The notes below the pieces were generated by a model. The model was not told where the DNA came from, searched no databases, and saw only the letters and a program-made list of their open reading frames with translations. Made by a program: the position numbers and the translations under genes. From the sequence record NC_018855.1: 64,000 nt of DNA. One strand, 5' to 3'. This DNA is from Escherichia phage HX01. Below are positions 1 to 51,599 of this stretch, piece after piece; the stretch's first letter is position 1, and every line of letters begins with the position of its first letter.

Positions 1-69
1 GTAGCTCAATGGGAGAGCTGTCAGCTCATAACTGATAGGTAGCTGGATCGAAACCAGCCAGGGTCACCA
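1..69 (+). tRNA. tRNA with anticodon CAT (Met or lysidine-Ile type), 5' end cut by window edge
   Basis: D-arm AGCTCAATGGGAGAGC, anticodon stem GTCAG/CTGAT with loop CTCATAA, T-arm GCTGG-ATCGAAA-CCAGC, encoded CCA at 67-69. Confidence 0.7.
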
Positions 70-72
70 ATC

Positions 73-149
<77 letters not shown>

Positions 150-41064: not shown

Positions 41065-43776
41065 ATGAAAGAATTTTACTTAACGGTTGAACAGATTGGT
41101 GATTCAATTTTTGAACGTTACATCGATTCTAACGGCCGTGAACGTACTCGTGAAGTAGAATATAAACCATCACTGTTTGCTCATTGCCCGGAAAGTCAGG
41201 CTACGAAATATTTCGATATCTACGGTAAGCCGTGTACTCGTAAGTTGTTCGCCAATATGCGTGATGCCTCCCAATGGATTAAACGCATGGAAGATATCGG
41301 ACTTGAAGCACTTGGCATGGACGATTTCAAATTGGCGTATTTGTCTGACACTTATAACTATGAAATCAAATACGACCATACAAAAATTCGTGTGGCTAAC
41401 TTCGACATCGAAGTAACATCTCCAGACGGGTTCCCTGAGCCGTCACAAGCAAAACATCCGATTGATGCTATCACTCATTATGACTCAATTGACGACAGGT
41501 TCTACGTATTTGATCTATTGAATTCTCCATACGGTAATGTAGAAGAATGGTCTATTGAAATCGCTGCTAAGCTTCAAGAACAAGGCGGTGATGAAGTTCC
41601 ATCCGAAATTATCGATAAAATCATTTATATGCCGTTCGATAACGAAAAAGAATTGTTGATGGAATATCTCAACTTCTGGCAACAGAAAACTCCTGTCATT
41701 TTGACTGGATGGAACGTTGAGTCATTTGATATTCCGTATGTGTATAACCGAATCAAGAATATTTTTGGCGAATCCACAGCAAAACGGTTGTCACCACATC
41801 GTAAAACTCGTGTTAAAGTTATCGAAAACATGTATGGTTCTCGTGAAATCATTACATTGTTCGGTATCTCTGTTCTTGATTACATTGACCTTTACAAAAA
41901 ATTCTCTTTTACCAATCAACCGTCATATTCTCTGGATTACATTTCAGAATTTGAATTGAACGTTGGTAAACTGAAATATGACGGCCCTATTTCTAAGCTT
42001 CGTGAAAGCAATCACCAACGATATATTTCTTATAACATTATCGACGTGTATCGTGTATTGCAAATTGATGCTAAACGTCAGTTCATTAACTTGAGCTTGG
42101 ACATGGGTTATTATGCTAAGATACAGATTCAATCTGTGTTTAGCCCAATTAAAACATGGGATGCTATTATTTTTAATAGCCTTAAAGAGCAGAACAAGGT
42201 GATTCCACAAGGTCGTTCTCACCCGGTTCAACCTTATCCCGGCGCTTTTGTTAAGGAACCTATTCCAAATCGATACAAATATGTAATGAGTTTCGACCTT
42301 ACATCTCTGTATCCAAGTATTATTCGCCAAGTGAATATTAGCCCAGAAACAATAGCAGGAACGTTTAAAGTAGCTCCATTGCATGATTATATTAACGCTG
42401 TTGCTGAACGTCCTTCTGATGTGTACAGTTGTTCTCCTAACGGCATGATGTATTATAAAGATCGTGATGGTGTAGTTCCAACTGAAATCACTAAGGTCTT
42501 TAATCAACGTAAAGAACATAAAGGTTACATGCTTGCAGCTCAACGTAATGGTGAAATAATTAAAGAGGCATTGCATAATCCTAATCTTTCTGTTGACGAA
42601 CCATTAGATGTTGATTATCGTTTCGACTTCAGTGATGAGATTAAAGAAAAGATTAAAAAGTTGTCTGCTAAATCTCTTAATGAAATGTTGTTTAGAGCTC
42701 AACGTACTGAAGTTGCAGGTATGACTGCCCAAATTAACCGTAAATTGCTTATCAACTCACTTTATGGTGCACTTGGCAACGTTTGGTTCCGTTATTATGA
42801 TTTGCGTAATGCTACTGCAATCACAACATTCGGGCAAATGGCTTTACAGTGGATTGAACGTAAAGTTAATGAATATCTGAATGAAGTTTGTGGCACAGAA
42901 GGTGAAGCTTTCGTTCTTTATGGTGATACAGACTCTATTTACGTATCTGCTGATAAAATTATCGATAAGGTTGGTGAATCTAAATTCCGTGATACCAACC
43001 ATTGGGTAGACTTCTTAGATAAGTTTGCACGTGAACGTATGGAACCAGCTATTGATAGAGGTTTCCGTGAAATGTGTGAATACATGAACAATAAACAACA
43101 CTTAATGTTCATGGACCGAGAAGCTATCGCTGGGCCTCCACTCGGTTCTAAAGGTATTGGTGGATTCTGGACTGGTAAGAAACGTTATGCATTAAACGTG
43201 TGGGATATGGAAGGAACCAGATACGCCGAACCTAAGCTTAAAATCATGGGTCTAGAGACTCAGAAATCTTCGACTCCTAAAGCAGTACAGAAAGCTCTTA
43301 AAGAATGTATTCGTCGTATGCTTCAGGAAGGCGAAGAATCATTACAAGAATATTTTAAAGAGTTTGAAAAAGAATTCCGTCAATTGAATTATATTAGCAT
43401 CGCGTCGGTATCTTCTGCGAATAACATTGCTAAATATGATGTAGGTGGATTCCCTGGTCCTAAATGCCCGTTCCATATTCGTGGAATTCTGACGTATAAC
43501 CGGGCTATCAAAGGTAATATCGATGCACCGCAAGTTGTAGAAGGTGAAAAAGTATATGTTCTGCCTTTACGTGAAGGAAACCCATTCGGTGATAAATGTA
43601 TCGCATGGCCTTCTGGTACTGAAATCACAGATTTAATTAAAGACGACGTACTTCATTGGATGGACTACACTGTTCTCCTTGAGAAGACATTTATTAAACC
43701 ACTTGAAGGATTCACATCAGCAGCGAAACTCGATTACGAGAAGAAAGCATCTCTGTTCGATATGTTCGATTTTTGA
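41065..43776 (+). CDS. 43: DNA polymerase gp43 (family B)
   Basis: 903 aa; exonuclease and polymerase motifs (YGDTDS); N-terminus matches my recollection of RB69 gp43. Confidence 0.97.
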   Translation: MKEFYLTVEQIGDSIFERYIDSNGRERTREVEYKPSLFAHCPESQATKYFDIYGKPCTRKLFANMRDASQWIKRMEDIGLEALGMDDFKLAYLSDTYNYEIKYDHTKIRVANFDIEVTSPDGFPEPSQAKHPIDAITHYDSIDDRFYVFDLLNSPYGNVEEWSIEIAAKLQEQGGDEVPSEIIDKIIYMPFDNEKELLMEYLNFWQQKTPVILTGWNVESFDIPYVYNRIKNIFGESTAKRLSPHRKTRVKVIENMYGSREIITLFGISVLDYIDLYKKFSFTNQPSYSLDYISEFELNVGKLKYDGPISKLRESNHQRYISYNIIDVYRVLQIDAKRQFINLSLDMGYYAKIQIQSVFSPIKTWDAIIFNSLKEQNKVIPQGRSHPVQPYPGAFVKEPIPNRYKYVMSFDLTSLYPSIIRQVNISPETIAGTFKVAPLHDYINAVAERPSDVYSCSPNGMMYYKDRDGVVPTEITKVFNQRKEHKGYMLAAQRNGEIIKEALHNPNLSVDEPLDVDYRFDFSDEIKEKIKKLSAKSLNEMLFRAQRTEVAGMTAQINRKLLINSLYGALGNVWFRYYDLRNATAITTFGQMALQWIERKVNEYLNEVCGTEGEAFVLYGDTDSIYVSADKIIDKVGESKFRDTNHWVDFLDKFARERMEPAIDRGFREMCEYMNNKQHLMFMDREAIAGPPLGSKGIGGFWTGKKRYALNVWDMEGTRYAEPKLKIMGLETQKSSTPKAVQKALKECIRRMLQEGEESLQEYFKEFEKEFRQLNYISIASVSSANNIAKYDVGGFPGPKCPFHIRGILTYNRAIKGNIDAPQVVEGEKVYVLPLREGNPFGDKCIAWPSGTEITDLIKDDVLHWMDYTVLLEKTFIKPLEGFTSAAKLDYEKKASLFDMFDF

Positions 43777-43816: not shown

Positions 43817-44452
43817 ATGAAAACTACTCCTATTACTATCGCTATTGACGCAATCATAAAACAAGCTTCTTCTTTGGTCGCTATGGCCAAAGTAATTAGT
43901 CAAAACCCTGCTCGTTATAATGCTATTCTAGAAACTCTTCGACGCCCAGGACTTAGTAATTATGAAAGCCGAGTAATTATTACAGGTGTTGGTAAGAATG
44001 CTAATATTGCAACTAAAGCTTCTGAGACATTTGCTTCACTCGGTATCCCGAGTATGTACTTGAACACTGGACATTATTCTCACGGTGATGCAGGATTCAT
44101 TGCGCCTAATGATGTGTTGATTCATATTAGTCGTTCTGGTAAAACTGAAGAAATGATAGGCGTGGCTAAGCATCTTAAAATGATTCGTCCGAACGTCAAA
44201 CAGATTCTGTTGCATTGTAACCCGGACATTCCACAAGAATACGAAGCTCTTTTTGATTATACGTTCTGTACAGGCATCGCAGTAGAGGTTGATGAGAATT
44301 CTCTGGCTCCGACCATGTCCACTACATTGTTGTTAGCGCTTATCGATACGTTTGCTATCAACCTTTCGTCTGAACGTGGATTTACCTCTAATGACTTCCT
44401 TAAGTTCCACCCTGGCGGTGCACTAGGTGCCATGTTACGAGGCGAACAATGA
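43817..44452 (+). CDS. SIS-domain sugar-phosphate isomerase (arabinose-5-phosphate isomerase / phosphoheptose isomerase-like)
   Basis: ITGVGKNANIATKASETF and HISRSGKTEE match SIS-domain signatures. Confidence 0.75.
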   Translation: MKTTPITIAIDAIIKQASSLVAMAKVISQNPARYNAILETLRRPGLSNYESRVIITGVGKNANIATKASETFASLGIPSMYLNTGHYSHGDAGFIAPNDVLIHISRSGKTEEMIGVAKHLKMIRPNVKQILLHCNPDIPQEYEALFDYTFCTGIAVEVDENSLAPTMSTTLLLALIDTFAINLSSERGFTSNDFLKFHPGGALGAMLRGEQ

Positions 44453-44592
44453 AAGCAATAACAATAGGACTTTTACTATTGATGCTTGTCATGACTATCT
44501 ACTGGAGCTTAACGACTCCAGTAATGATTCCGACTCTTATAATCGGATGGATTATGATTGGACTACAAGCAAAGTATGAATGCTTTAACTAG
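44449..44592 (+). CDS. 47-aa membrane peptide
   Basis: ATGA-coupled to SIS gene; two hydrophobic stretches; read manually. Confidence 0.4.
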   Translation: MKAITIGLLLLMLVMTIYWSLTTPVMIPTLIIGWIMIGLQAKYECFN

Positions 44593-44633: not shown

Positions 44634-46319
44634 ATGAAAAAAGCTGTTATTCTTGGTGCTGGACTGGCAACTCGTTTGTATCCAATAACGCATCATATTC
44701 CTAAGGTGCTTGTTAACTATAAACAAGACACTATTCTGAGCAATTTGTATACAATTTATTCTGACCTTGGCGCAGATGAAATTATTGTAGTAGTTCATTC
44801 AAAATTTGCTGAAACTGTTCGAGCTTATTGTGAGCAAGAAGGGTTCAATGTGACTATTCGTACAGTTGATGAAGCGTATGGTTCTGCTTATGCTCTTGCT
44901 AAATTGCACAAAGATTTAGACGGCCATAATGTAATTGTTAACTGGTGTGATATTATTCCTGATTTTGGTTCATGGTCTTGGAATGTTAACGCAATCTATG
45001 TTAAAGGTGACGAATGTCGATATAATTTCGACGGTGAAAATATCACTAACGTAGGTTCAACAGGTGGTAATGTTGTAGGAATTTATCAGTTCAAAGACTG
45101 GGAATTCTATATGGGTTCTACCGATGAGGAAATTCATGAATACTGCAAAGGACGTGATTTCGTAGAATTCCTTTACGGCAGTGCATTCAATAAATCAGAG
45201 CTTATGAATCTAATTGATTTAGGTGATATGCCTAAACTTGAAAAGGCTCATGAAGTTCGTGAACTTAATCGTAGTTTTAATGCCGTTGAAATTGGTGAAG
45301 AAACTGTAACTAAATTCGCATTAACCGAACAAGGCCGAGCTCTTCAGAAAGATGAGATTTCATGGTATCTTAAAGTGAAATCAGATTCAGTTCCTCAGTT
45401 AGTTTCTGTTAATGAAAATAACTTTGAAATGGAACGCATTAAAGGTAAGCCGGCATTTGAATATATTAAATCCAAATCGAGTCTTGCTCGTCCACAAATT
45501 GTTGATGCAATTTTAGATGCACTGAAATTCAGCACAGACACTTATTTTGTAAGTCCTGAAACTGTTCGTCGTGATTTCACTAAAGAATTCTATACTAAAG
45601 TTATTGATCGTTGTGAAAGTATTCAACCATTGATTGATTCATTTGGTAAAATCACACATGTGAACTACACTAAGATTGGGCGTCTGAAGCCAATGTTGAA
45701 ACAAGCTTTAGAACACCTTATTCGTTATCATAACCGTTCTCAGGGACAGTACTCTGTTATTCATGGTGACCCGAACTTCAGTAATACTATGATTACTGAT
45801 AATGGTGAAGTCAAGTTTATCGACCCTCGTGGATATTTTGGTGAAACCAAGATTTATGGACCAAAATTGTACGACGAAGCTAAAGTGCTTTATGCTGTTT
45901 CAGGTTATGATGAATTCAACGCTAATCCGACCTGGGGACAGTTTACTATTGACGAAACAACTTGTAATGTGTCTATTAACATCAATCCATTAGTTTACAA
46001 ATATGGAAAGATGAGTTCGTTTAACGAGTATCATCATTTGGCAGTGGCAATTATCTGGATTGCATTAGGTGGTTATTTCAAGAATAATCCACTTAAAGCG
46101 GTAGCCGCATATTATAAAGGTATGGAACTTCTGACTAAGCAATTACGTAACATGGGCCGTGTACTTCAGGACGGCTCTATTAGTTATGACGTAGCAGAAC
46201 CTGTAACGGCTACTCTGATTACAAAAAATCCTGGTAAATGGGTACTAACTGATAAAGAAACTGGTGTTTCCTATCGTCCAATCGGTGGCGATATCACTCA
46301 TCAATGGGAACGAATCTAA
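44634..46319 (+). CDS. bifunctional sugar-1-phosphate nucleotidyltransferase / sugar kinase
   Basis: N-terminal GAGLATRLYPITHHIPKVL (G-x-G-T-R-x-x-P motif); C-terminal HGDPNFSNTMI and FIDPRGYFG (APH/ChoK-like kinase motifs). Confidence 0.75.
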   Translation: MKKAVILGAGLATRLYPITHHIPKVLVNYKQDTILSNLYTIYSDLGADEIIVVVHSKFAETVRAYCEQEGFNVTIRTVDEAYGSAYALAKLHKDLDGHNVIVNWCDIIPDFGSWSWNVNAIYVKGDECRYNFDGENITNVGSTGGNVVGIYQFKDWEFYMGSTDEEIHEYCKGRDFVEFLYGSAFNKSELMNLIDLGDMPKLEKAHEVRELNRSFNAVEIGEETVTKFALTEQGRALQKDEISWYLKVKSDSVPQLVSVNENNFEMERIKGKPAFEYIKSKSSLARPQIVDAILDALKFSTDTYFVSPETVRRDFTKEFYTKVIDRCESIQPLIDSFGKITHVNYTKIGRLKPMLKQALEHLIRYHNRSQGQYSVIHGDPNFSNTMITDNGEVKFIDPRGYFGETKIYGPKLYDEAKVLYAVSGYDEFNANPTWGQFTIDETTCNVSININPLVYKYGKMSSFNEYHHLAVAIIWIALGGYFKNNPLKAVAAYYKGMELLTKQLRNMGRVLQDGSISYDVAEPVTATLITKNPGKWVLTDKETGVSYRPIGGDITHQWERI

Positions 46320-46705
46320 TGCACCGTGTAGAAAACATGCTTAATCTTTGTTTTGATGTCGATGATTGTATAACAGAGTGGAATAACAACCGTGATTACG
46401 TGAACTTCAAACCAGACGTCGAAATGGTGACTGCCATTAATGCCCTGTACGATGCAGGGCATACCATAACGCTTTACACTGCTCGCGGTATGAAGTCAGT
46501 CGGTCCTGGTCGTATAGCAATTGACATTCTCCCAAGTCTGATTCAGAACTTGGCAAACATTGGATTGAAGTACCATAATTTGCTAACACATAAACCAGTA
46601 TATGATTGGATTATCGACGACAAAGCTATGCGTCCTGACGAATTCAAAGCTCTTATGAATAAAGGCGAATTCGAAACATTTAAATCATATAAACCGAATC
46701 TATAA
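46319..46705 (+). CDS. HAD-superfamily phosphatase
   Basis: Motif I FDVDDCIT; TAATG-coupled start at 46319. Confidence 0.65.
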   Translation: MHRVENMLNLCFDVDDCITEWNNNRDYVNFKPDVEMVTAINALYDAGHTITLYTARGMKSVGPGRIAIDILPSLIQNLANIGLKYHNLLTHKPVYDWIIDDKAMRPDEFKALMNKGEFETFKSYKPNL

Positions 46706-46762: not shown

Positions 46763-47923
46763 ATGAATACTTTTAAAATCGGAACGAATTTTGATTTAGC
46801 TCTTCTTGATAAAATCGTAGAGCTCAATAAAACTTATCCTAATAGCTTGATAAACGAAGTATACGGCTCTACAAGAGAAATGGCTTTTGTAGCAGCCAGA
46901 CCTGATTTTAGGCTTCCTGACGTTGACAAAAAGATGTTAGAAGATTATGTTAAACGTTGTAACGAATTAGGTATTTGCTTTAACTATACACTCAACACGA
47001 TAAATCCTGGTTCAAAAAGAGAACTAGTTGAGTGGAAGAAGAAAGCTATTCAGGATTATGTTCAGTATCTTTGGTCAATAGGCGTATGGCGTATTACTAT
47101 CGCTAACCCTGTTGTTATGGAAATTGTTCGTGAAGTCAATAAAGACATTGAGATTGAAGTTTCAACAATTCTACATGTCGATGCTGTAACTCAAATCAAA
47201 TACTTGCATGACCAATATAATATCAAAAAGGTCTGCTGTGGAATTCATAAGAACCGTTCAGTTTCTTTCCTGAAACGTGCAGCAGAGTTTTGTAATAAGA
47301 ACAATATAATATTTGAAGTTCTTGTAAATGAGTTCTGTTCTAATGCTGGTAAAGGGTACACAACACATTGTAGCTATCGTGACTCTTGCTATATTTTCCA
47401 TAGCACCGATGTTACAGTAGATGATGCCAAATCCTTAAATGGATATCCAATGCAACACTGTATTAAAGCTCGTGATACAGATCCATTTAACTGGTTGAGA
47501 ACTCGTTTTGTTCGTCCTCAAGATTTGAAACTTTATAATGATATTGGTATCACTCAATTTAAAGTTTCGGGACGTACAGGTAGCACAGACTACATTTTGA
47601 AAGTTCTTGAAGCTTATGCTTCTGAAAAGTTTGAAGGCAATTTGTTGGAATTGTGGAAGCCTTTAGAGACCATTTTCACTCTTGAAAATGAGACCGAGTT
47701 TTCACATACAGTAAATATTGAAACCTCTTTGTTAGACGGCTTTTTAGAAAAAAGGTGGTTCAAACATCCAGATTTCGATTGTGCTAATGAAATCTGCGGG
47801 ACGACGTGTACATATTGTGAAAGATATTATAAACGTCAGTTATCTAAAAATGGGTTATCAGAAAACTCTATATCTATTATTGATATAACTAACTCTGATG
47901 ACGCTTTGAGGTACCCAGAATGA
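46763..47923 (+). CDS. peptidase-U32-family-like protein with Cys cluster
   Basis: FKVSGRTGS resembles the U32 LKIEGRTKS motif; EFCSNAGKGYTTHCSYRDSC and C-terminal CANEICGTTCTYC. Confidence 0.5.
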   Translation: MNTFKIGTNFDLALLDKIVELNKTYPNSLINEVYGSTREMAFVAARPDFRLPDVDKKMLEDYVKRCNELGICFNYTLNTINPGSKRELVEWKKKAIQDYVQYLWSIGVWRITIANPVVMEIVREVNKDIEIEVSTILHVDAVTQIKYLHDQYNIKKVCCGIHKNRSVSFLKRAAEFCNKNNIIFEVLVNEFCSNAGKGYTTHCSYRDSCYIFHSTDVTVDDAKSLNGYPMQHCIKARDTDPFNWLRTRFVRPQDLKLYNDIGITQFKVSGRTGSTDYILKVLEAYASEKFEGNLLELWKPLETIFTLENETEFSHTVNIETSLLDGFLEKRWFKHPDFDCANEICGTTCTYCERYYKRQLSKNGLSENSISIIDITNSDDALRYPE

Positions 47924-48000
47924 TTTCTAGAAAAACTTTTAACCACCAACTTAACGAAGAGATTTTGACTATTAAAATTAACAGCAACGAACAAATTCTT

Positions 48001-48025
48001 AAAAAGGCCCATAAGGGCCTTTTTG
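48001..48025 (+). terminator. possible terminator
   Basis: AAAAAGGCCC-ATAA-GGGCCTTTTT; lies inside a possible 51-aa ORF. Confidence 0.4.
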
Positions 48026-48161
48026 AAACTAAAGCGGCTAAAGTGATTAAAGAACCTGTTCAACTAGAATACTAAGCCGAAGCTCTACGTTATATCAACA
48101 TCGCTAAGAAATTCAAATAAGCTTTATGAATTGAGTATATAATAACTGTATTGAGGTAAAC

Positions 48162-48878
48162 ATGGGAAAACATAACACAATGAAATATATTAAAGCCGCA
48201 GATTTTCAATCCGCATTTAAAGCTGTCAATCGTGAAATTTTAGAAAATCCACAGTTCATTACTGATTCTCGTATTGGACGTTGTAATGAAATTGGGTCTA
48301 TGACAGTAGTTGTTGATACCCCTTCATCATTCAAAATGACCGACCCACGTATTAATCGCATCTCTTATGAATATGCTGAAGATTTCTGGAAATTTATGAT
48401 TTCTGGTGGTACTGATGCAAAAGAAGCATTTAAGGCATATCCTAACGTCGCTAAATTTATTTCTAAACCTAAATCAGACGCTTTGCCTGCAAACTTCAAC
48501 ACTTTCTATGGTCCACGAATTGCGGCCCAGTTACCAACTCTTCTAAAAGAACTTAAAGAAAAACCTAACTCTCGAAGAGTTGTGTTCCAAATTCTAGAAA
48601 GTTCTGATCAGGCTTTGCTTGATTCAGACGAAACACTTGAATATCCATGTACTGACTCAGTGACTTATTATATTCGTGATGGTAAGCTTTATACCCACTG
48701 TCATATGCGTTCTCAGAACTGTGCTGTTGTTATGCAGTTGGATTTTTATCTCCAAGGAAAATTACTTCATTATATCGCTAACGAATGTGGTGTAGAAGTT
48801 GGTGATTATACTCATACCATGGTAAGTGCCCATGTGTTTGAACGTGATTTTGATTATGTTAAAGGATTCCTTGACTAA
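48162..48878 (+). CDS. 42: thymidylate-synthase-fold pyrimidine hydroxymethylase (gene 42-like, divergent)
   Basis: RRVVFQI, PCTDSVTYYIRDGKLYTHCHMRSQN, QLDF align to TS / dCMP-hydroxymethylase core motifs, with Asp at the cytosine-specificity position. Confidence 0.65.
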   Translation: MGKHNTMKYIKAADFQSAFKAVNREILENPQFITDSRIGRCNEIGSMTVVVDTPSSFKMTDPRINRISYEYAEDFWKFMISGGTDAKEAFKAYPNVAKFISKPKSDALPANFNTFYGPRIAAQLPTLLKELKEKPNSRRVVFQILESSDQALLDSDETLEYPCTDSVTYYIRDGKLYTHCHMRSQNCAVVMQLDFYLQGKLLHYIANECGVEVGDYTHTMVSAHVFERDFDYVKGFLD

Positions 48879-49777
48879 TGGCTATTTTCCGCGTACCTAT
48901 TTTGAGTATGCGGTCTTATGAAACTGGACAGTATGCTATCCTTAAGGATGGCAACTTCCAACTTCATTTGCACCGTGCTAATCCGGGTGATGTGATTACA
49001 TATCCACGTAATGCATCTGATATTAAAGAATGTGAACGTCTTTTCCCAGAATTTAAGTTTGTTCCATTATGGTATAAAGATAACGCATATAACACTCGTA
49101 AATATTTCTGGTCTGAAAATGAATTTGTGGTTGATTCATTAATTGATTATTATGATTGTGATTTTCTAATCACAGATATCACTGGATATGACGGCACTTT
49201 TGACGTAGAATTCAATTTCAATATCACTGCAGACCCTAATAAACCACGTTTTTATATTGACGAATTCTTAAAAACCGACATGTTGTCTGTTAATCGTTCA
49301 CTTCAAACTACTGTGTTGAATGAACGTCAAAAAGAAGTGCTGGTTAACGCAGGTGCAGATGGTAATAAGATTATCGTAACGCAGAAAGTTATACGTCCTT
49401 CCATCATGCAGCGTCTTGTAGGTGATTTGGCCCCTATTCATCTAGATGGTATTTTTCATCCATTTCGAATTAGTGACCCGTGTTATCGTTTTGAACAAGT
49501 GGTTGAATGCGCAATTCAATTAGGTCAACCGCTTTATATAACCGATCCAAATAATAGCTTCGACAGAAATAAGTATCCTGAAGAAGCACTGATTCGAATT
49601 TTTAAACCAACTAAAACTGAGTACTATCAAATTCTTAAAGGAAGACCGAAGATTCAATATTTCGAAAATCCTGAAGAAGTATTCCATCCAGGTCTTGGCG
49701 AGTTCATCTACTTTAACGCTTTAATTTCTTCACCGTATAATATACCTAAATATGAAGATGTCGTAATCGAGGAATAA
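48878..49777 (+). CDS. hypothetical protein; candidate DNA glycosyltransferase by position
   Basis: 299 aa in the slot where T4 has beta-gt; no diagnostic motif recognised. Confidence 0.35.
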   Translation: MAIFRVPILSMRSYETGQYAILKDGNFQLHLHRANPGDVITYPRNASDIKECERLFPEFKFVPLWYKDNAYNTRKYFWSENEFVVDSLIDYYDCDFLITDITGYDGTFDVEFNFNITADPNKPRFYIDEFLKTDMLSVNRSLQTTVLNERQKEVLVNAGADGNKIIVTQKVIRPSIMQRLVGDLAPIHLDGIFHPFRISDPCYRFEQVVECAIQLGQPLYITDPNNSFDRNKYPEEALIRIFKPTKTEYYQILKGRPKIQYFENPEEVFHPGLGEFIYFNALISSPYNIPKYEDVVIEE

Positions 49778-49778
49778 A

Positions 49779-50327
49779 ATGGCTAAAATTATTTTAGTAG
49801 ATGGCCCAGATAATGCTGGTAAAACAACTTTCATTAATGACATAATGGAAATTAGTGAAAGATATGTAAAGATTGATTTCCCTAAACGAACAGTTGATGG
49901 ACGTTTCGATGTTAAGTCTCGAAATGAAGTTGGCTGTTTCGAAACGATGTTGAATTATTTAGACCCTACTAAGATTTATCTGTTAGACCGTGGATATATT
50001 AGTAACTGGGTTTATGGACGTATTCGACAAGATGCGGACTCGGTTCTTGACGTTTATGAACAGGATTATGTTCGTCTTTGCCAAAACCATGATGTGTTCA
50101 CAATTATTTTAACACGTAACGAAATGACTGAAAGTTTTGAAGACGACCTTATTACTTTGTCTTCATTCGGTTTTAATACAGTCATTTCATATTTTGAAGA
50201 GTTTGCAATTCATAACGAAATCCAAACGTATCAATTACTTAATCATGATGGTGCTAACAAAGTTATAGGATTTAATGCAAGCGAACGTAATGGTTTGATT
50301 ACAGAAATTATCAAATGGGCTCGTTAA
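49779..50327 (+). CDS. P-loop kinase (nucleoside/nucleotide or small-molecule kinase-like)
   Basis: Walker A VDGPDNAGKTT, LLDRGY motif. Confidence 0.6.
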   Translation: MAKIILVDGPDNAGKTTFINDIMEISERYVKIDFPKRTVDGRFDVKSRNEVGCFETMLNYLDPTKIYLLDRGYISNWVYGRIRQDADSVLDVYEQDYVRLCQNHDVFTIILTRNEMTESFEDDLITLSSFGFNTVISYFEEFAIHNEIQTYQLLNHDGANKVIGFNASERNGLITEIIKWAR

Positions 50328-50426: not shown

Positions 50427-51599
50427 ATGTCTGATTTAAAATCTCGTCTGATTAAAGCTTCTACTTCTAAAATGACTGCAGACTTGACTAAGTCTAAGCT
50501 GTTTAATAATCGTGATGAAGTCCCTACTCGTATTCCGATGTTGAATATTGCATTAGGTGGTGCACTGAATGCCGGGTTGCAATCAGGCTTAACTATTTTT
50601 GCTGCTCCTTCTAAACACTTTAAAACGTTGTTTGGACTGACCATGGTTGCAGCGTATATGAAGAAATATAAAGATGCAATCTGTTTGTTTTATGACTCAG
50701 AATTCGGTGCTTCGGAATCTTATTTTCGTTCAATGGGTGTTGATTTAGACCGTGTAGTTCATACACCAATTCAGTCAGTCGAACAACTTAAAGTTGATAT
50801 GACTAATCAGCTTGACGCGATTGAACGCGGTGATAAAGTTATTATCTTTATCGATTCAATCGGTAATACTGCATCTAAGAAAGAAACTGAAGATGCATTG
50901 AACGAGAAAGTTGTAGGTGATATGTCTCGTGCTAAGGCACTTAAATCTCTTTTCCGTATTGTGACCCCGTATCTGACTATTAAAGATATTCCGTGTGTTG
51001 CAATTAACCATACCGCAATGGAAATTGGCGGATTGTATCCTAAAGAGATTATGGGCGGTGGTACAGGTATTCTTTATTCTGCTAACACTGTATTCTTTAT
51101 CTCTAAACGTCAGGTTAAAGAAGGTACAGAATTGACCGGTTACGACTTCACGTTGAAAGCAGAAAAATCTCGTACAGTTAAAGAGAAATCTACTTTCCCG
51201 ATCACGGTTAATTTCGATGGTGGTATCGACCCATTCAGTGGCTTGCTAGAAATGGCAACTGAAATCGGTTTTGTGGTTAAGCCTAAAGCTGGTTGGTATG
51301 CTCGTGAATTCCTTGACGAAGAAACAGGTGAAATGATTCGTGAAGAAAAATCATGGCGTGCTAAAGCTACTGATTGTGTAGAATTCTGGGGACCTTTGTT
51401 TAAACACAAACCTTTCCGAGATGCAATTGAAACTAAATATAAACTAGGTGCTATCTCTTCTATTAAAGAAGTTGATGACGCTGTTAACGACCTTATTAAT
51501 TGCAAAGCAACAACTAAAGTTCCGGTTAAAACTTCTGATGCTCCGTCTGCAGCAGATATAGAAAACGACCTTGACGAAATGGAAGATTTCGATGAATAA
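50427..51599 (+). CDS. uvsX: recombinase UvsX (RecA-like)
   Basis: MSDLKSRLIKASTSK...AREFLDEETGEMIREEKSWRAK matches T4 UvsX. Confidence 0.96.
   Translation: MSDLKSRLIKASTSKMTADLTKSKLFNNRDEVPTRIPMLNIALGGALNAGLQSGLTIFAAPSKHFKTLFGLTMVAAYMKKYKDAICLFYDSEFGASESYFRSMGVDLDRVVHTPIQSVEQLKVDMTNQLDAIERGDKVIIFIDSIGNTASKKETEDALNEKVVGDMSRAKALKSLFRIVTPYLTIKDIPCVAINHTAMEIGGLYPKEIMGGGTGILYSANTVFFISKRQVKEGTELTGYDFTLKAEKSRTVKEKSTFPITVNFDGGIDPFSGLLEMATEIGFVVKPKAGWYAREFLDEETGEMIREEKSWRAKATDCVEFWGPLFKHKPFRDAIETKYKLGAISSIKEVDDAVNDLINCKATTKVPVKTSDAPSAADIENDLDEMEDFDE

What the first reader, a model, noticed from the sequence alone, without database searches (positions are those of the whole stretch)
44634..46319. Fused sugar-nucleotidyltransferase and anomeric sugar kinase
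One polypeptide carries the G-x-G-T-R-L-x-P signature of sugar-1-phosphate nucleotidyltransferases at the N-terminus and HGDxxxxN plus DxxG kinase motifs at the C-terminus. This architecture lets the phage make an NDP-sugar from a free sugar without host salvage enzymes. Fusions of this kind are known in bacterial glycan pathways but not as a standard T4 gene.
Basis: seen in the sequence. Interest (0 to 1): 0.7.

Follow-up and report, generated by a model that had tools for sequence, protein, structure and literature searches.

The report
Phage UDP-arabinose synthase (AfhE ortholog)
This gene of an RB69-like T-even phage encodes a real two-domain enzyme, a sugar kinase fused to a nucleotidyltransferase, that makes the UDP-arabinose used to decorate the phage's DNA, but it is already described in the literature.

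Summary

It is not new. It is about 97.5% DNA-identical to RB69 ORF53_52c, recognised as one 561-aa gene in 2018. It is 97% protein-identical to the syntenic HY126 protein that I take to be AfhE. A 2026 NAR paper, citing He et al. [quoted passage not shown]

The reported substrate is arabinose-5-phosphate, not a free sugar. The pathway is Ru5P, A5P (SIS isomerase, 43817..44452), Ara-1,5-bisphosphate (kinase domain), Araf-1-P (HAD phosphatase, 46319..46705), then UDP-Araf (NTase domain). The sugar is transferred to 5-hydroxy-dC in phage DNA.

The literal GxGTRLxP motif is absent; the sequence reads GLATRLYP. Homologs occur in 367 phage records. They also occur next to, or fused with, SIS and HAD domains in bacteria, archaea and giant-virus contigs. 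Interest is low and the feature is already known.

The parts
44634..46319 (+). Bifunctional gene, ortholog of HY126 AfhE and RB69 ORF53_52c (gp52:53), 561 aa plus stop codon
   Evidence: ORF. 97% aa identity to HY126 XAN60479.1. About 97.5% DNA identity to RB69 ORF053c+052c, with a single 1-nt indel. Full-length match to phrog_4098.
44634..45254 (+). N-terminal domain (aa 1 to about 207): sugar-1-phosphate nucleotidyltransferase, inferred to convert Araf-1-P plus UTP to UDP-Araf
   Evidence: Pfam PF00483 E=8.5e-10. Family profile against PDB sequences: HddC E=4e-13, LicC 1.6e-11. Foldseek: MurU, RmlA, LicC, HddC at E about 1e-8, TMt 0.66-0.72.
44661..44705 (+). Nucleotide-binding signature G10-L-A-T-R14-L-Y-P17 ... 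P23-K24
   Evidence: G10, R14 and K24 are invariant in 42 homologs. The second Gly of the canonical GxGTRLxP is Ala here.
45216..45236 (+). D195-L-G-D198-M-P-K201, an invariant acidic/Lys motif at the end of the NTase domain. Its equivalence to the D-x-G-T metal/phosphate motif of RmlA and MurU is inferred.
   Evidence: Invariant columns in alignment A1. The correspondence to RmlA/MurU is inference.
45255..46154 (+). C-terminal kinase domain (aa about 208-507), APH/choline-kinase-like fold; reported activity in the ortholog is D-arabinose-5-phosphate 1-kinase
45312..45356 (+). N-lobe K227 ... E241, the ATP-anchoring Lys and alpha-C Glu pair
   Evidence: Both residues are invariant. They lie on strand E224-229 and helix H232-247 of the model. 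Their roles are inferred.
45762..45785 (+). Catalytic loop H377-G-D379-P-N-F-S-N384 (Brenner motif HxDxxxxN)
   Evidence: H377, G378, D379 and N384 are invariant.
45819..45833 (+). Mg-binding I396-D397-P-R-G400, the DFG equivalent of APH/ChoK kinases
   Evidence: all five residues are invariant.
46155..46316 (+). C-terminal extension of about 54 aa (aa 508-561), found only in the Straboviridae-type enzymes; function unknown
   Evidence: Present down to the roughly 36-44% identity homologs and absent from the shorter, more distant ones in alignment A1. Lower pLDDT, 77-87.
43817..44452 (+). SIS-domain arabinose-5-phosphate isomerase (Ru5P to A5P), which supplies the kinase substrate
   Evidence: Pfam SIS E=1.7e-10. 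KpsF/GutQ and KdsD NCBIfam models at E 2e-32 and 1e-30, below the equivalog cut-offs. phrog_5670. Directly upstream of the fused gene in most phage loci and in 41 of 80 cellular loci.
46319..46705 (+). HAD-family phosphatase (128 aa; AfhF / RB69 gp51 ortholog). Its start codon overlaps the AfhE stop (TAATG). Reported to remove the 5-phosphate from Ara-1,5-bisphosphate.
   Evidence: Translation shows the DVDDC motif I. TIGR01689 capsule-biosynthesis phosphatase E=4e-13. Immediately downstream of the fused gene in all Straboviridae-type loci. Function from PMC13326640.
48162..48878 (+). Thymidylate-synthase homolog, the dCMP 5-hydroxylase (RB69 gp48 ortholog), which makes the acceptor base
   Evidence: Pfam Thymidylat_synt E=2e-15. 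Syntenic with RB69p048. Function shown experimentally for RB69 and DLP3 in PMC13326640.
48878..49777 (+). Putative DNA arabinosyltransferase (RB69 gp46:47 ortholog), the consumer of UDP-Araf
   Evidence: phrog_3891 full length. Syntenic with RB69p046/047. Assignment from PMC13326640 Table 1.
49779..50327 (+). Thymidylate-kinase-like nucleotide kinase (RB69 gp45 ortholog)
   Evidence: phrog_761. Synteny. PMC13326640 Table 1.

Best explanation
The gene encodes the Mosigvirus ortholog of AfhE (RB69 gp52:53), a bifunctional enzyme in the phage's own route to UDP-D-arabinofuranose.

1. The upstream SIS isomerase converts ribulose-5-phosphate to D-arabinose-5-phosphate.
2. The C-terminal APH/choline-kinase-like domain of this protein uses ATP to phosphorylate the anomeric C1-OH, giving arabinofuranose-1,5-bisphosphate.
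3. The HAD phosphatase encoded immediately downstream removes the 5-phosphate.
4. The N-terminal nucleotidyltransferase domain condenses Araf-1-P with UTP to give UDP-Araf plus PPi.
5. Phage glycosyltransferases then attach arabinofuranose to 5-hydroxy-deoxycytidine in phage DNA, which protects it from host nucleases.

Keeping the 5-phosphate on until after C1 phosphorylation locks the sugar in the furanose ring; this point is my inference.

Shown here: the ORF, the two folds, the catalytic residues, the orthology and the gene linkage. Taken from the literature: the substrates and the reaction order, measured on the 97%-identical HY126 enzyme. Inferred: that the same holds for this protein.
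For: - ORF and motifs. Invariant catalytic residues of both domains in 42 homologs.
- NTase domain: Pfam above cut-off; family profile hits HddC at 4e-13 and LicC at 1.6e-11; Foldseek hits MurU, RmlA and LicC.
- Orthology: 97% aa identity to the syntenic HY126 protein; about 97.5% DNA identity to RB69 ORF053c+052c.
- Biochemistry of AfhE and AfhF as reported in PMC13326640 section 27. D-Araf on 5-hydroxy-dC in RB69 DNA.
- Linkage: the HAD gene is directly downstream, and the ThyA-like, glycosyltransferase and nucleotide-kinase genes lie in the same cluster, in all 27 Straboviridae-type loci; SIS is directly upstream in 17 of them.
- SIS is adjacent in 41 of 80 cellular loci. In Trichodesmium a KpsF/GutQ-type SIS+CBS gene lies upstream; in Dakarella a ribulose-phosphate 3-epimerase does.
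- Single polypeptides carry HAD-SIS-NTase-kinase.
Against: - I could not read the primary biochemical paper (He et al. 2026 is not held). The substrate order is second-hand.
- The same NAR paper's Table 1 still lists the older order, phosphatase first and then phosphorylation of free arabinose.
- That XAN60479.1 is the protein named AfhE is inferred from synteny and from the NAR paper's statement of equivalence to RB69 gp52:53. It was not read from the HY126 annotation, which says 'hypothetical protein'.
- The kinase domain is below Pfam thresholds in this protein.
- No activity, nucleotide specificity or sugar specificity can be tested with these tools.
Confidence: 0.85

Rival explanations
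1. This is the free-sugar route, as the first reader proposed and as Table 1 of PMC13326640 lists. The HAD phosphatase first converts arabinose-5-phosphate to free D-arabinose. The C-terminal domain then acts as an anomeric kinase on the free sugar, and the N-terminal domain makes the NDP-sugar.
For: Structural neighbours include kinases that act on free sugars at C1: NahK, maltokinase and MTR kinase. Table 1 of PMC13326640 annotates gp51 as 'dephosphorylates Araf5p to Ara' and the C-terminal domain as 'phosphorylates Ara to Araf1p'. Gene content alone (SIS, kinase-NTase, HAD) fits either order.
Against: [quoted passage not shown] Free D-arabinose is mainly pyranose in solution (my knowledge), whereas the DNA sugar is furanose. 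The NTase domain's best profile match is HddC, from a heptose pathway that runs through a bisphosphate with the same SIS, kinase, HAD, NTase logic (the pathway is my knowledge). Ten phage loci have no SIS gene within 10 kb, which fits drawing on the host's A5P pool made for Kdo synthesis rather than on free D-arabinose (inference).
Confidence: 0.1
2. The protein is a LicC/LicA-type phosphocholine or phosphoethanolamine activation enzyme (choline kinase plus CTP:phosphocholine cytidylyltransferase), or a GlmU, as several GenBank records annotate it.
Against: Identities to those structures are only 9-20%. GlmU NCBIfam models score about 22 bits against cut-offs of 367-505 (TIGR01173 and NF010933), and the C-terminal half is a kinase fold rather than an acetyltransferase domain. 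The conserved neighbours are a pentose-phosphate isomerase, a HAD sugar phosphatase, a dCMP hydroxylase and a glycosyltransferase. RB69 DNA carries arabinose, not choline.
Confidence: 0.02
3. The chemistry is the same but the carrier nucleotide or sugar differs in this particular phage, for example CDP-, GDP- or dTDP-arabinose, or another pentofuranose.
For: Nucleotide specificity cannot be read from the sequence here. The nearest NTases use UTP, dTTP, CTP or GTP.
Against: The protein is 97% identical to the enzyme reported to make UDP-D-arabinose. UDP-Araf was used as the donor in the DLP3 glycosyltransferase assays on RB69 DNA (methods).
Confidence: 0.03

Closest known systems
AfhE of Escherichia phage HY126 (He et al., Nat Chem Biol 2026, as reported in PMC13326640), equivalent to RB69 ORF53_52c / gp52:53 (Thomas et al. 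2018, PMC6024577) and DLP3 gp82
   Same: Same length (561 versus 562 aa), 97% aa identity, the same two domains, and the same position between the SIS isomerase and the HAD phosphatase downstream of DNA polymerase gp43.
   Different: Sixteen amino-acid differences, clustered at aa 241-263. The RB69 reference record splits the gene in two because of one extra C, which the window sequence lacks.
ADP-/GDP-heptose pathway: GmhA (SIS isomerase), HldE or HddA (kinase), GmhB (HAD bisphosphate phosphatase), HldE C-terminal domain or HddC (nucleotidyltransferase)
   Same: The pathway logic is identical: ketose-phosphate, aldose-phosphate, anomeric phosphorylation to a bisphosphate, removal of the distal phosphate, then NDP-sugar. 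In HldE the kinase and NTase are also fused. HddC is the best profile match for the N-terminal domain.
   Different: The HldE kinase is a PfkB/ribokinase-fold enzyme and its NTase is a cytidylyltransferase-fold enzyme, with the kinase N-terminal (my knowledge). Here the kinase is APH/ChoK-like and C-terminal. The sugar is a C5 furanose, not a C7 heptose.
AmgK-MurU (MurNAc/GlcNAc anomeric kinase plus MurNAc-1-P uridylyltransferase) and LicA-LicC (choline kinase plus CTP:phosphocholine cytidylyltransferase)
   Same: The same pair of folds does the same two jobs: an APH/ChoK-like kinase makes the phosphate ester that an RmlA/MurU-like NTase then activates. MurU, LicC and LicA are among the top structural hits.
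   Different: These are usually separate proteins and act on a free sugar or on choline. Identity is only about 12-20%. No phosphatase step is needed.
Fkp (Bacteroides L-fucokinase/GDP-fucose pyrophosphorylase) and similar salvage fusions
   Same: One polypeptide combines an NTase with an anomeric sugar kinase, with the NTase N-terminal.
   Different: The Fkp kinase is a GHMP-family enzyme acting on a free sugar in a salvage route. Here the kinase is APH-like and is fed de novo with a sugar phosphate.

Membership tests
Sugar-1-phosphate nucleotidyltransferases (Pfam PF00483; RmlA/MurU/LicC/HddC type) | Profile match above the curated threshold | tested here: met
   PF00483 scores 39.1 bits against a cut-off of 21.2, E=8.5e-10, but covers only profile positions 1-101 of 245.
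Sugar-1-phosphate nucleotidyltransferases (Pfam PF00483; RmlA/MurU/LicC/HddC type) | N-terminal G-x-G-T-R-L-x-P-x-T-(x)n-P-K signature | tested here: met
   Present as G10-L-A-T-R-L-Y-P-I-T ... P23-K24. The second Gly is Ala, so the literal pattern fails, but G10, R14 and K24 are invariant in 42 homologs.
Sugar-1-phosphate nucleotidyltransferases (Pfam PF00483; RmlA/MurU/LicC/HddC type) | Complete nucleotidyltransferase fold | tested here: met
   AF2 pLDDT 93.8. Foldseek matches MurU 4y7v (TMt 0.72), LicC 1jyl (0.68) and HddC 5xhw (0.64), probability 1.00.
Sugar-1-phosphate nucleotidyltransferases (Pfam PF00483; RmlA/MurU/LicC/HddC type) | NTP plus sugar-1-P to NDP-sugar plus PPi activity | not testable with these tools
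   Reported for the HY126 ortholog as UDP-D-arabinose pyrophosphorylase (PMC13326640).
APH/choline-kinase-like small-molecule kinases (Pfam PF01636 and relatives) | Profile match above the curated threshold | tested here: not met
   The window protein has no APH hit. Fructosamin_kin scores 17.1 against 22.4, EcKL 16.2 against 22 and RIO1 16.1 against 22. Homologs do pass: Trichodesmium L132 scores 32.1 bits on APH against 23.2, and P0051, P0055 and P0056 carry PF01636.
APH/choline-kinase-like small-molecule kinases (Pfam PF01636 and relatives) | Catalytic loop HxDxxxxN and Mg-binding Asp (IDxxG), plus an N-lobe Lys/Glu pair | tested here: met
   H377-G-D379-PNFS-N384, I396-D397-P-R-G400, K227 and E241 are all invariant.
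APH/choline-kinase-like small-molecule kinases (Pfam PF01636 and relatives) | Bilobal kinase fold | tested here: met
AfhE / RB69 gp52:53 orthologous group | Full-length high identity and conserved synteny (SIS, fused gene, HAD, ThyA-like, glycosyltransferase) | tested here: met
   97% aa identity to HY126. About 97.5% nt identity to RB69. Synteny.
AfhE / RB69 gp52:53 orthologous group | D-arabinose-5-phosphate 1-kinase activity coupled to AfhF dephosphorylation | not testable with these tools
   Known only second-hand from the literature. The primary paper is not held.
GlmU (the annotation carried by several GenBank records) | Match to GlmU equivalog models and a C-terminal left-handed beta-helix acetyltransferase domain | tested here: not met
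   The best-scoring GlmU NCBIfam models reach about 22 bits against cut-offs of 367 (TIGR01173) and 505 (NF010933). The C-terminal half is a kinase fold. The 'GlmU' label is a misnomer.
HldE (bifunctional heptose kinase/adenylyltransferase) | PfkB-family kinase domain plus cytidylyltransferase-family NTase domain | tested here: not met
   No PfkB or CTP_transf_like hits in Pfam or NCBIfam. The folds are APH-like and RmlA-like. The protein works like HldE but is not a member.
Free-sugar anomeric kinases (NahK, AmgK, maltokinase) | Substrate is an unphosphorylated sugar | not testable with these tools

The most novel reading that the evidence does not exclude
The phage enzyme may be only the visible tip of a much wider, largely unannotated pentofuranose-activation module: an SIS isomerase with an NTase/APH-kinase fusion, with or without a HAD. 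The module turns up in many bacteria (Sutterella, Dakarella, Massilia, Trichodesmium, Campylobacterales, Clostridia), in archaea (Micrarchaeota, Thermoplasmata), in jumbo phages, and as single 890-955-aa HAD-SIS-NTase-kinase polypeptides in giant-virus-like contigs and a eukaryotic transcriptome. If these all make NDP-D-Araf or a related NDP-pentofuranose, a bisphosphate route to furanosyl nucleotide sugars would be a general pathway for glycans well outside phage DNA modification. He et al. 2026 may already have surveyed this; I could not read that paper.
Probability: 0.4. Interest if true: 0.5.

Novelty: already known. Interest (0 to 1): 0.15.

Why it matters
Arabinosylated 5-hydroxycytosine lets RB69-like phages escape restriction enzymes and other DNA-targeting defences, and it changes their sensitivity to type IV systems. 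This enzyme supplies the activated sugar, so it is a determinant of phage host range, of how easily the phage can be engineered (Cas cleavage), and of how its DNA behaves in sequencing and cloning. For this scan, the practical value is a correct annotation. Most of the 367 phage records call the gene 'hypothetical', 'GlmU' or 'nucleotidyl transferase', and the RB69 reference still splits it in two. No new biology follows from this window.

Tried and rejected
- **Primary paper.** Reading He et al. 2026 failed because it is not held. The substrate order therefore rests on the NAR 2026 summary. Searches for 'AfhE'/'HY126' and for 'arabinofuranosylation' found only citing papers.
- **Solved structure of the enzyme.** A PDB sequence search found none. 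The best hit was LicC at E=2e-5, covering the N-terminal domain only.
- **Full-length model.** The top 50 Foldseek hits were all N-terminal-domain matches. A profile search of PDB sequences gave only RIO2 at E about 0.03 for the C-terminal half. I therefore remodelled aa 208-561 alone.
- **NCBIfam.** All hits fell far below the equivalog cut-offs, so no equivalog name can be transferred.
- **Promoters and terminators.** The scan found 26 promoter-like sites against 26 expected and 5 terminator-like sites against 3.5 expected, so nothing can be said about transcription units.
- **RNA genes.** Rfam and ARAGORN found nothing in or near the gene; the only RNA genes are at the window's 5' end.
- **GlmU and LicC/LicA readings.** Considered and rejected; see the rival explanations.
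- **Kinase substrate pocket.** I wanted to look for a 5-phosphate site, but model coordinates are not exposed to the sandbox.
Full report
**1. What is in the sequence**

The window is a T-even-type phage genome of the genus Mosigvirus (RB69-like). The 6.7 kb around the finding matches about 150 Escherichia and Shigella phage records at 95-99% DNA identity over at least 80% of its length; the best listed is phage F2 at 98.6%. Gene order is gp44, gp62, RegA and DNA polymerase gp43 (41065..43776). A block follows that T4 is not known to carry (my knowledge), and then UvsX (50427..51599).

The finding's coordinates are exact. An uninterrupted ORF runs 44634..46319 on the + strand (ATG start, 561 aa) with a GAGGA ribosome-binding site upstream.

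**2. Are the motifs real?**

- HGDxxxxN is present as H377-GDPNFS-N384.
- A DxxG lies within I396-D-P-R-G400. DxxG alone occurs three times in the protein and means little by itself.
- The literal G-x-G-T-R-L-x-P is absent. The sequence reads G10-L-A-T-R-L-Y-P17, then P23-K24, so the second glycine is alanine.

The motifs are supported by independent evidence.

- Pfam NTP_transferase matches aa 3-99 at 39.1 bits against a cut-off of 21.2.
- In an alignment of 42 full-length homologs reaching down to about 28% identity, the invariant residues are the expected catalytic ones. For the NTase they are G10, R14, K24, D106 and D195/G197/D198/K201. For the kinase they are K227, E241, H377/G378/D379/N384 and D397/P398/R399/G400.
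- The kinase half is below Pfam thresholds in this protein: Fructosamin_kin, EcKL and RIO1 score 16-17 bits against cut-offs of 22. More distant homologs pass the APH model.

**3. Structure**

- The AF2 model of the whole protein is confident (pLDDT 93.8, pTM 0.90).
- Foldseek against the PDB returned only N-terminal-domain matches among its top hits: MurU, RmlA, LicC, HddC and IPCT, at E about 1e-8 and target TM up to 0.72.
- A family profile against PDB sequences gives HddC at 4e-13 and LicC at 1.6e-11.
- A separate model of aa 208-561 (pLDDT 94.7) matches APH(2'')-IIa 3ham at E=8.8e-8, choline and ethanolamine kinases, and LicA.

In addition, a 54-aa C-terminal extension (508-561) is present only in the Straboviridae-type enzymes.

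**4. Identity with known proteins**

- The gene aligns to RB69 ORF053c+ORF052c at about 97.5% nucleotide identity (about 42 substitutions, counted from the alignment). The one indel is an extra C in the RB69 record.
- Thomas et al. 2018 showed that this C is a sequencing error and that the region encodes one 561-residue protein, ORF53_52c. They proposed it as a candidate for UDP-arabinose synthesis (PMC6024577).
- The protein is 97% identical (546 of 562 positions) to the syntenic protein XAN60479.1 of phage HY126.
- Lee et al. (NAR 2026, PMC13326640) cite He et al. (Nat Chem Biol 2026). They state that HY126 AfhE is the equivalent of RB69 gp52:53 and DLP3 gp82. [quoted passage not shown] They also state that AfhF, the HAD protein, is a Mg-dependent phosphatase acting on the 1,5-bisphosphate.
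- I could not read He et al. directly. That XAN60479.1 is AfhE is inferred from synteny and from the stated equivalence.

**5. How it most likely works**

The cluster reads as follows:

| Window coordinates | Gene |
|---|---|
| 43817..44452 | SIS arabinose-5-phosphate isomerase |
| 44449..44592 | 47-aa hydrophobic ORF |
| 44634..46319 | this gene |
| 46319..46705 | HAD phosphatase (DVDDC motif I; start overlaps this gene's stop) |
| 46763..47923 | Peptidase_U32-family protein |
| 47920..48075 | 51-aa ORF |
| 48162..48878 | ThyA-like dCMP 5-hydroxylase |
| 48878..49777 | glycosyltransferase |
| 49779..50327 | thymidylate-kinase-like kinase |

The best-supported pathway is this:

1. Ru5P is converted to A5P by the SIS isomerase.
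2. A5P is converted to Araf-1,5-P2 by the kinase domain.
3. Araf-1,5-P2 is converted to Araf-1-P by the HAD phosphatase.
4. Araf-1-P is converted to UDP-Araf by the NTase domain.
5. The sugar is transferred to 5-hydroxy-dC in DNA.

RB69 DNA carries D-arabinofuranose on 5-hydroxy-dC, shown by NMR and GC-MS.

Phosphorylating C1 while O5 is still blocked keeps the sugar in the furanose form. This is my inference, and it explains why a phosphatase is needed at all. The logic copies the ADP- and GDP-heptose pathways (GmhA, HldE or HddA, GmhB, HddC; my knowledge) with different protein folds. Fittingly, HddC is the best profile match for the N-terminal domain.

**6. Independent support from gene linkage**

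- *Viral loci.* Among 63 viral loci carrying a homolog, all 27 Straboviridae-type loci have the HAD gene directly downstream. They also carry the ThyA-like, glycosyltransferase and nucleotide-kinase genes in the same cluster. SIS is directly upstream in 17 of the 27. The other ten, a JS98/KIT01-like subgroup at 42-45% identity, have no SIS within 10 kb. Those phages can plausibly draw on the host's A5P pool made for Kdo synthesis (inference).
- *Cellular loci.* Among 80 loci from bacterial and archaeal genome assemblies (24-35% identity; the top one or two look like phage contigs binned with bacteria), 41 have a SIS gene immediately adjacent on the same strand.
  - In Trichodesmium erythraeum the neighbour is a KpsF/GutQ-type SIS+CBS protein.
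  - In Dakarella it is a ribulose-phosphate 3-epimerase, with a PMI-type isomerase on the other side.
- *Fusions.* Single polypeptides of 890-955 aa combine HAD, SIS, NTase and kinase. One sits among giant-virus hallmark genes (MutS with HNH, Rpb2, RNA_pol_N).

These fusions tie all four activities into one pathway fed by a pentose phosphate.

**7.

The enzyme does not appear to start from a free sugar or to replace a salvage route. It starts from a sugar phosphate made de novo and needs a partner phosphatase.

The free-sugar order cannot be excluded from sequence alone. Table 1 of the NAR paper still lists it. The reported HY126 biochemistry, the furanose argument and the heptose-pathway parallel all argue against it. 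I give it about 0.1.

The 'GlmU' and 'CTP:phosphocholine cytidylyltransferase' labels in some GenBank records fail their membership tests.

**8. Novelty and score**

The gene is present in 367 of 50,697 phage records, 132 of them at 99% amino-acid identity or more. It forms a full-length PHROG, phrog_4098, labelled 'unknown function'. It was described in 2018, and according to the 2026 literature it has been characterised biochemically in a 97%-identical ortholog.

The finding is real and was well spotted from raw sequence, but it is already known. Interest is 0.15.

The residual open points are these:

- the role of the C-terminal extension;
- the breadth of the cellular and giant-virus family;
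- outside the finding, the function of the neighbouring U32-family protein.

Noticed in passing
window 46763..47923 (+): A Peptidase_U32-family ORF (386 aa) sits between the HAD phosphatase and the O2/flavin-dependent ThyA-like dCMP 5-hydroxylase. All 13 Cys are invariant in 15 phage homologs, including a C-terminal C340-x4-C345-x3-C349-x2-C352 motif. The protein is 83-89% identical even between phages whose AfhE is only 44% identical. It is absent from the Acinetobacter- and Pseudomonas-type loci and from JS98-like loci. U32 proteins include O2-independent hydroxylases: RlhA makes 5-hydroxycytidine in rRNA, and there are also TrhP and UbiU/V (my knowledge). It could therefore be an anaerobic route to 5-hydroxycytosine. 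The NAR 2026 paper labels it only 'sugar or heterocycle reductase', and no held paper links U32, 5-hydroxycytosine and phage.
   Followed up: partly
L003 8001..10781 (NCBI GCA_013558355.1 contig JACCDH010973257.1); proteins P0084, P0088, P0089, P0092, P0095, P0109, P0091: Distant homologs (31-35% identity) exist as single polypeptides of about 890-955 aa with domain order HAD, SIS, NTase, kinase. P0084 is flanked by giant-virus hallmark genes: MutS with HNH, RNA polymerase Rpb2 and RNA_pol_N. P0091 comes from a eukaryotic transcriptome. Many GVMAG contigs also carry homologs. Other variants carry a C-terminal cupin or mannose-6-P-isomerase-like region (P0106) or a nucleoside deoxyribosyltransferase-like insert (P0118).
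   Followed up: partly
L023-L029, L033, L037, L051 (JS98-, KIT01-, VR5- and Klebsiella-phage-type loci): A subgroup of T-even-like phages, whose AfhE homolog is 42-45% identical to the window protein, keeps the HAD, ThyA-like, glycosyltransferase and kinase genes but has no SIS isomerase within 10 kb. This suggests reliance on host A5P from KdsD or GutQ, or a different sugar.
   Followed up: partly
L132 6798..9485 (Trichodesmium erythraeum IMS101, NC_008312.1); L084 7307..10803 (Dakarella massiliensis): Cellular NTase/APH-kinase fusions of 506 aa sit next to pentose-phosphate enzymes. In Trichodesmium the neighbours are a KpsF/GutQ-type SIS+CBS gene upstream, plus an ABC transporter, a TylF-like methyltransferase and a TauD dioxygenase nearby. 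In Dakarella they are a ribulose-phosphate 3-epimerase upstream and a PMI-type isomerase downstream. A SIS gene is adjacent in 41 of 80 cellular loci.
   Followed up: partly
window 44449..44592 (+): A 47-aa strongly hydrophobic ORF (MKAITIGLLLLMLVMTIYWSLTTPVMIPTLIIGWIMIGLQAKYECFN) lies between the isomerase and the fused gene. It looks like a small two-helix membrane protein, and its start overlaps the SIS stop codon (ATGA). Related phages annotate it as hypothetical or mislabel it 'phosphosugar isomerase'. It is too short (47 aa) for the 50-aa cut-off used, so the ORF list shows only a 50-aa GTG ORF (44427..44579) in another frame.
   Followed up: partly
window 46155..46316 (aa 508-561 of the fused protein): A C-terminal extension with conserved pattern T-K-x-P-x-K-W-x-L-x-D-x-E is present only in the Straboviridae-type enzymes. 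It is missing from the more distant viral and metagenomic homologs and lies beyond the matched region (ending near residue 500) in most cellular loci. It is modelled as a few short strands with lower confidence, pLDDT 77-87. Its function is unknown; it might be a docking or oligomerisation element.
   Followed up: no
L006 4595..6281 (RB69 NC_004928.1 28094..29780, complement): The RB69 reference record still splits this gene into ORF052c and ORF053c because of one extra C (column 655 of alignment A2). It also labels the HAD phosphatase 'phosphoheptose isomerase'. Among the records listed, the fused gene is called 'hypothetical', 'GlmU' or 'nucleotidyl transferase'.
   Followed up: yes
window 47920..48075 (+): A 51-aa ORF overlaps the U32 stop codon and matches phrog_8601 (unknown function) over its full length at E=3e-29. 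It is conserved within the cluster in related phages.
   Followed up: no
window 1..149 (+): tRNA-Arg(tct) lies at 73..149, and a 5'-truncated second tRNA at 1..66 sits at the window edge. This is the end of the phage tRNA cluster.
   Followed up: no
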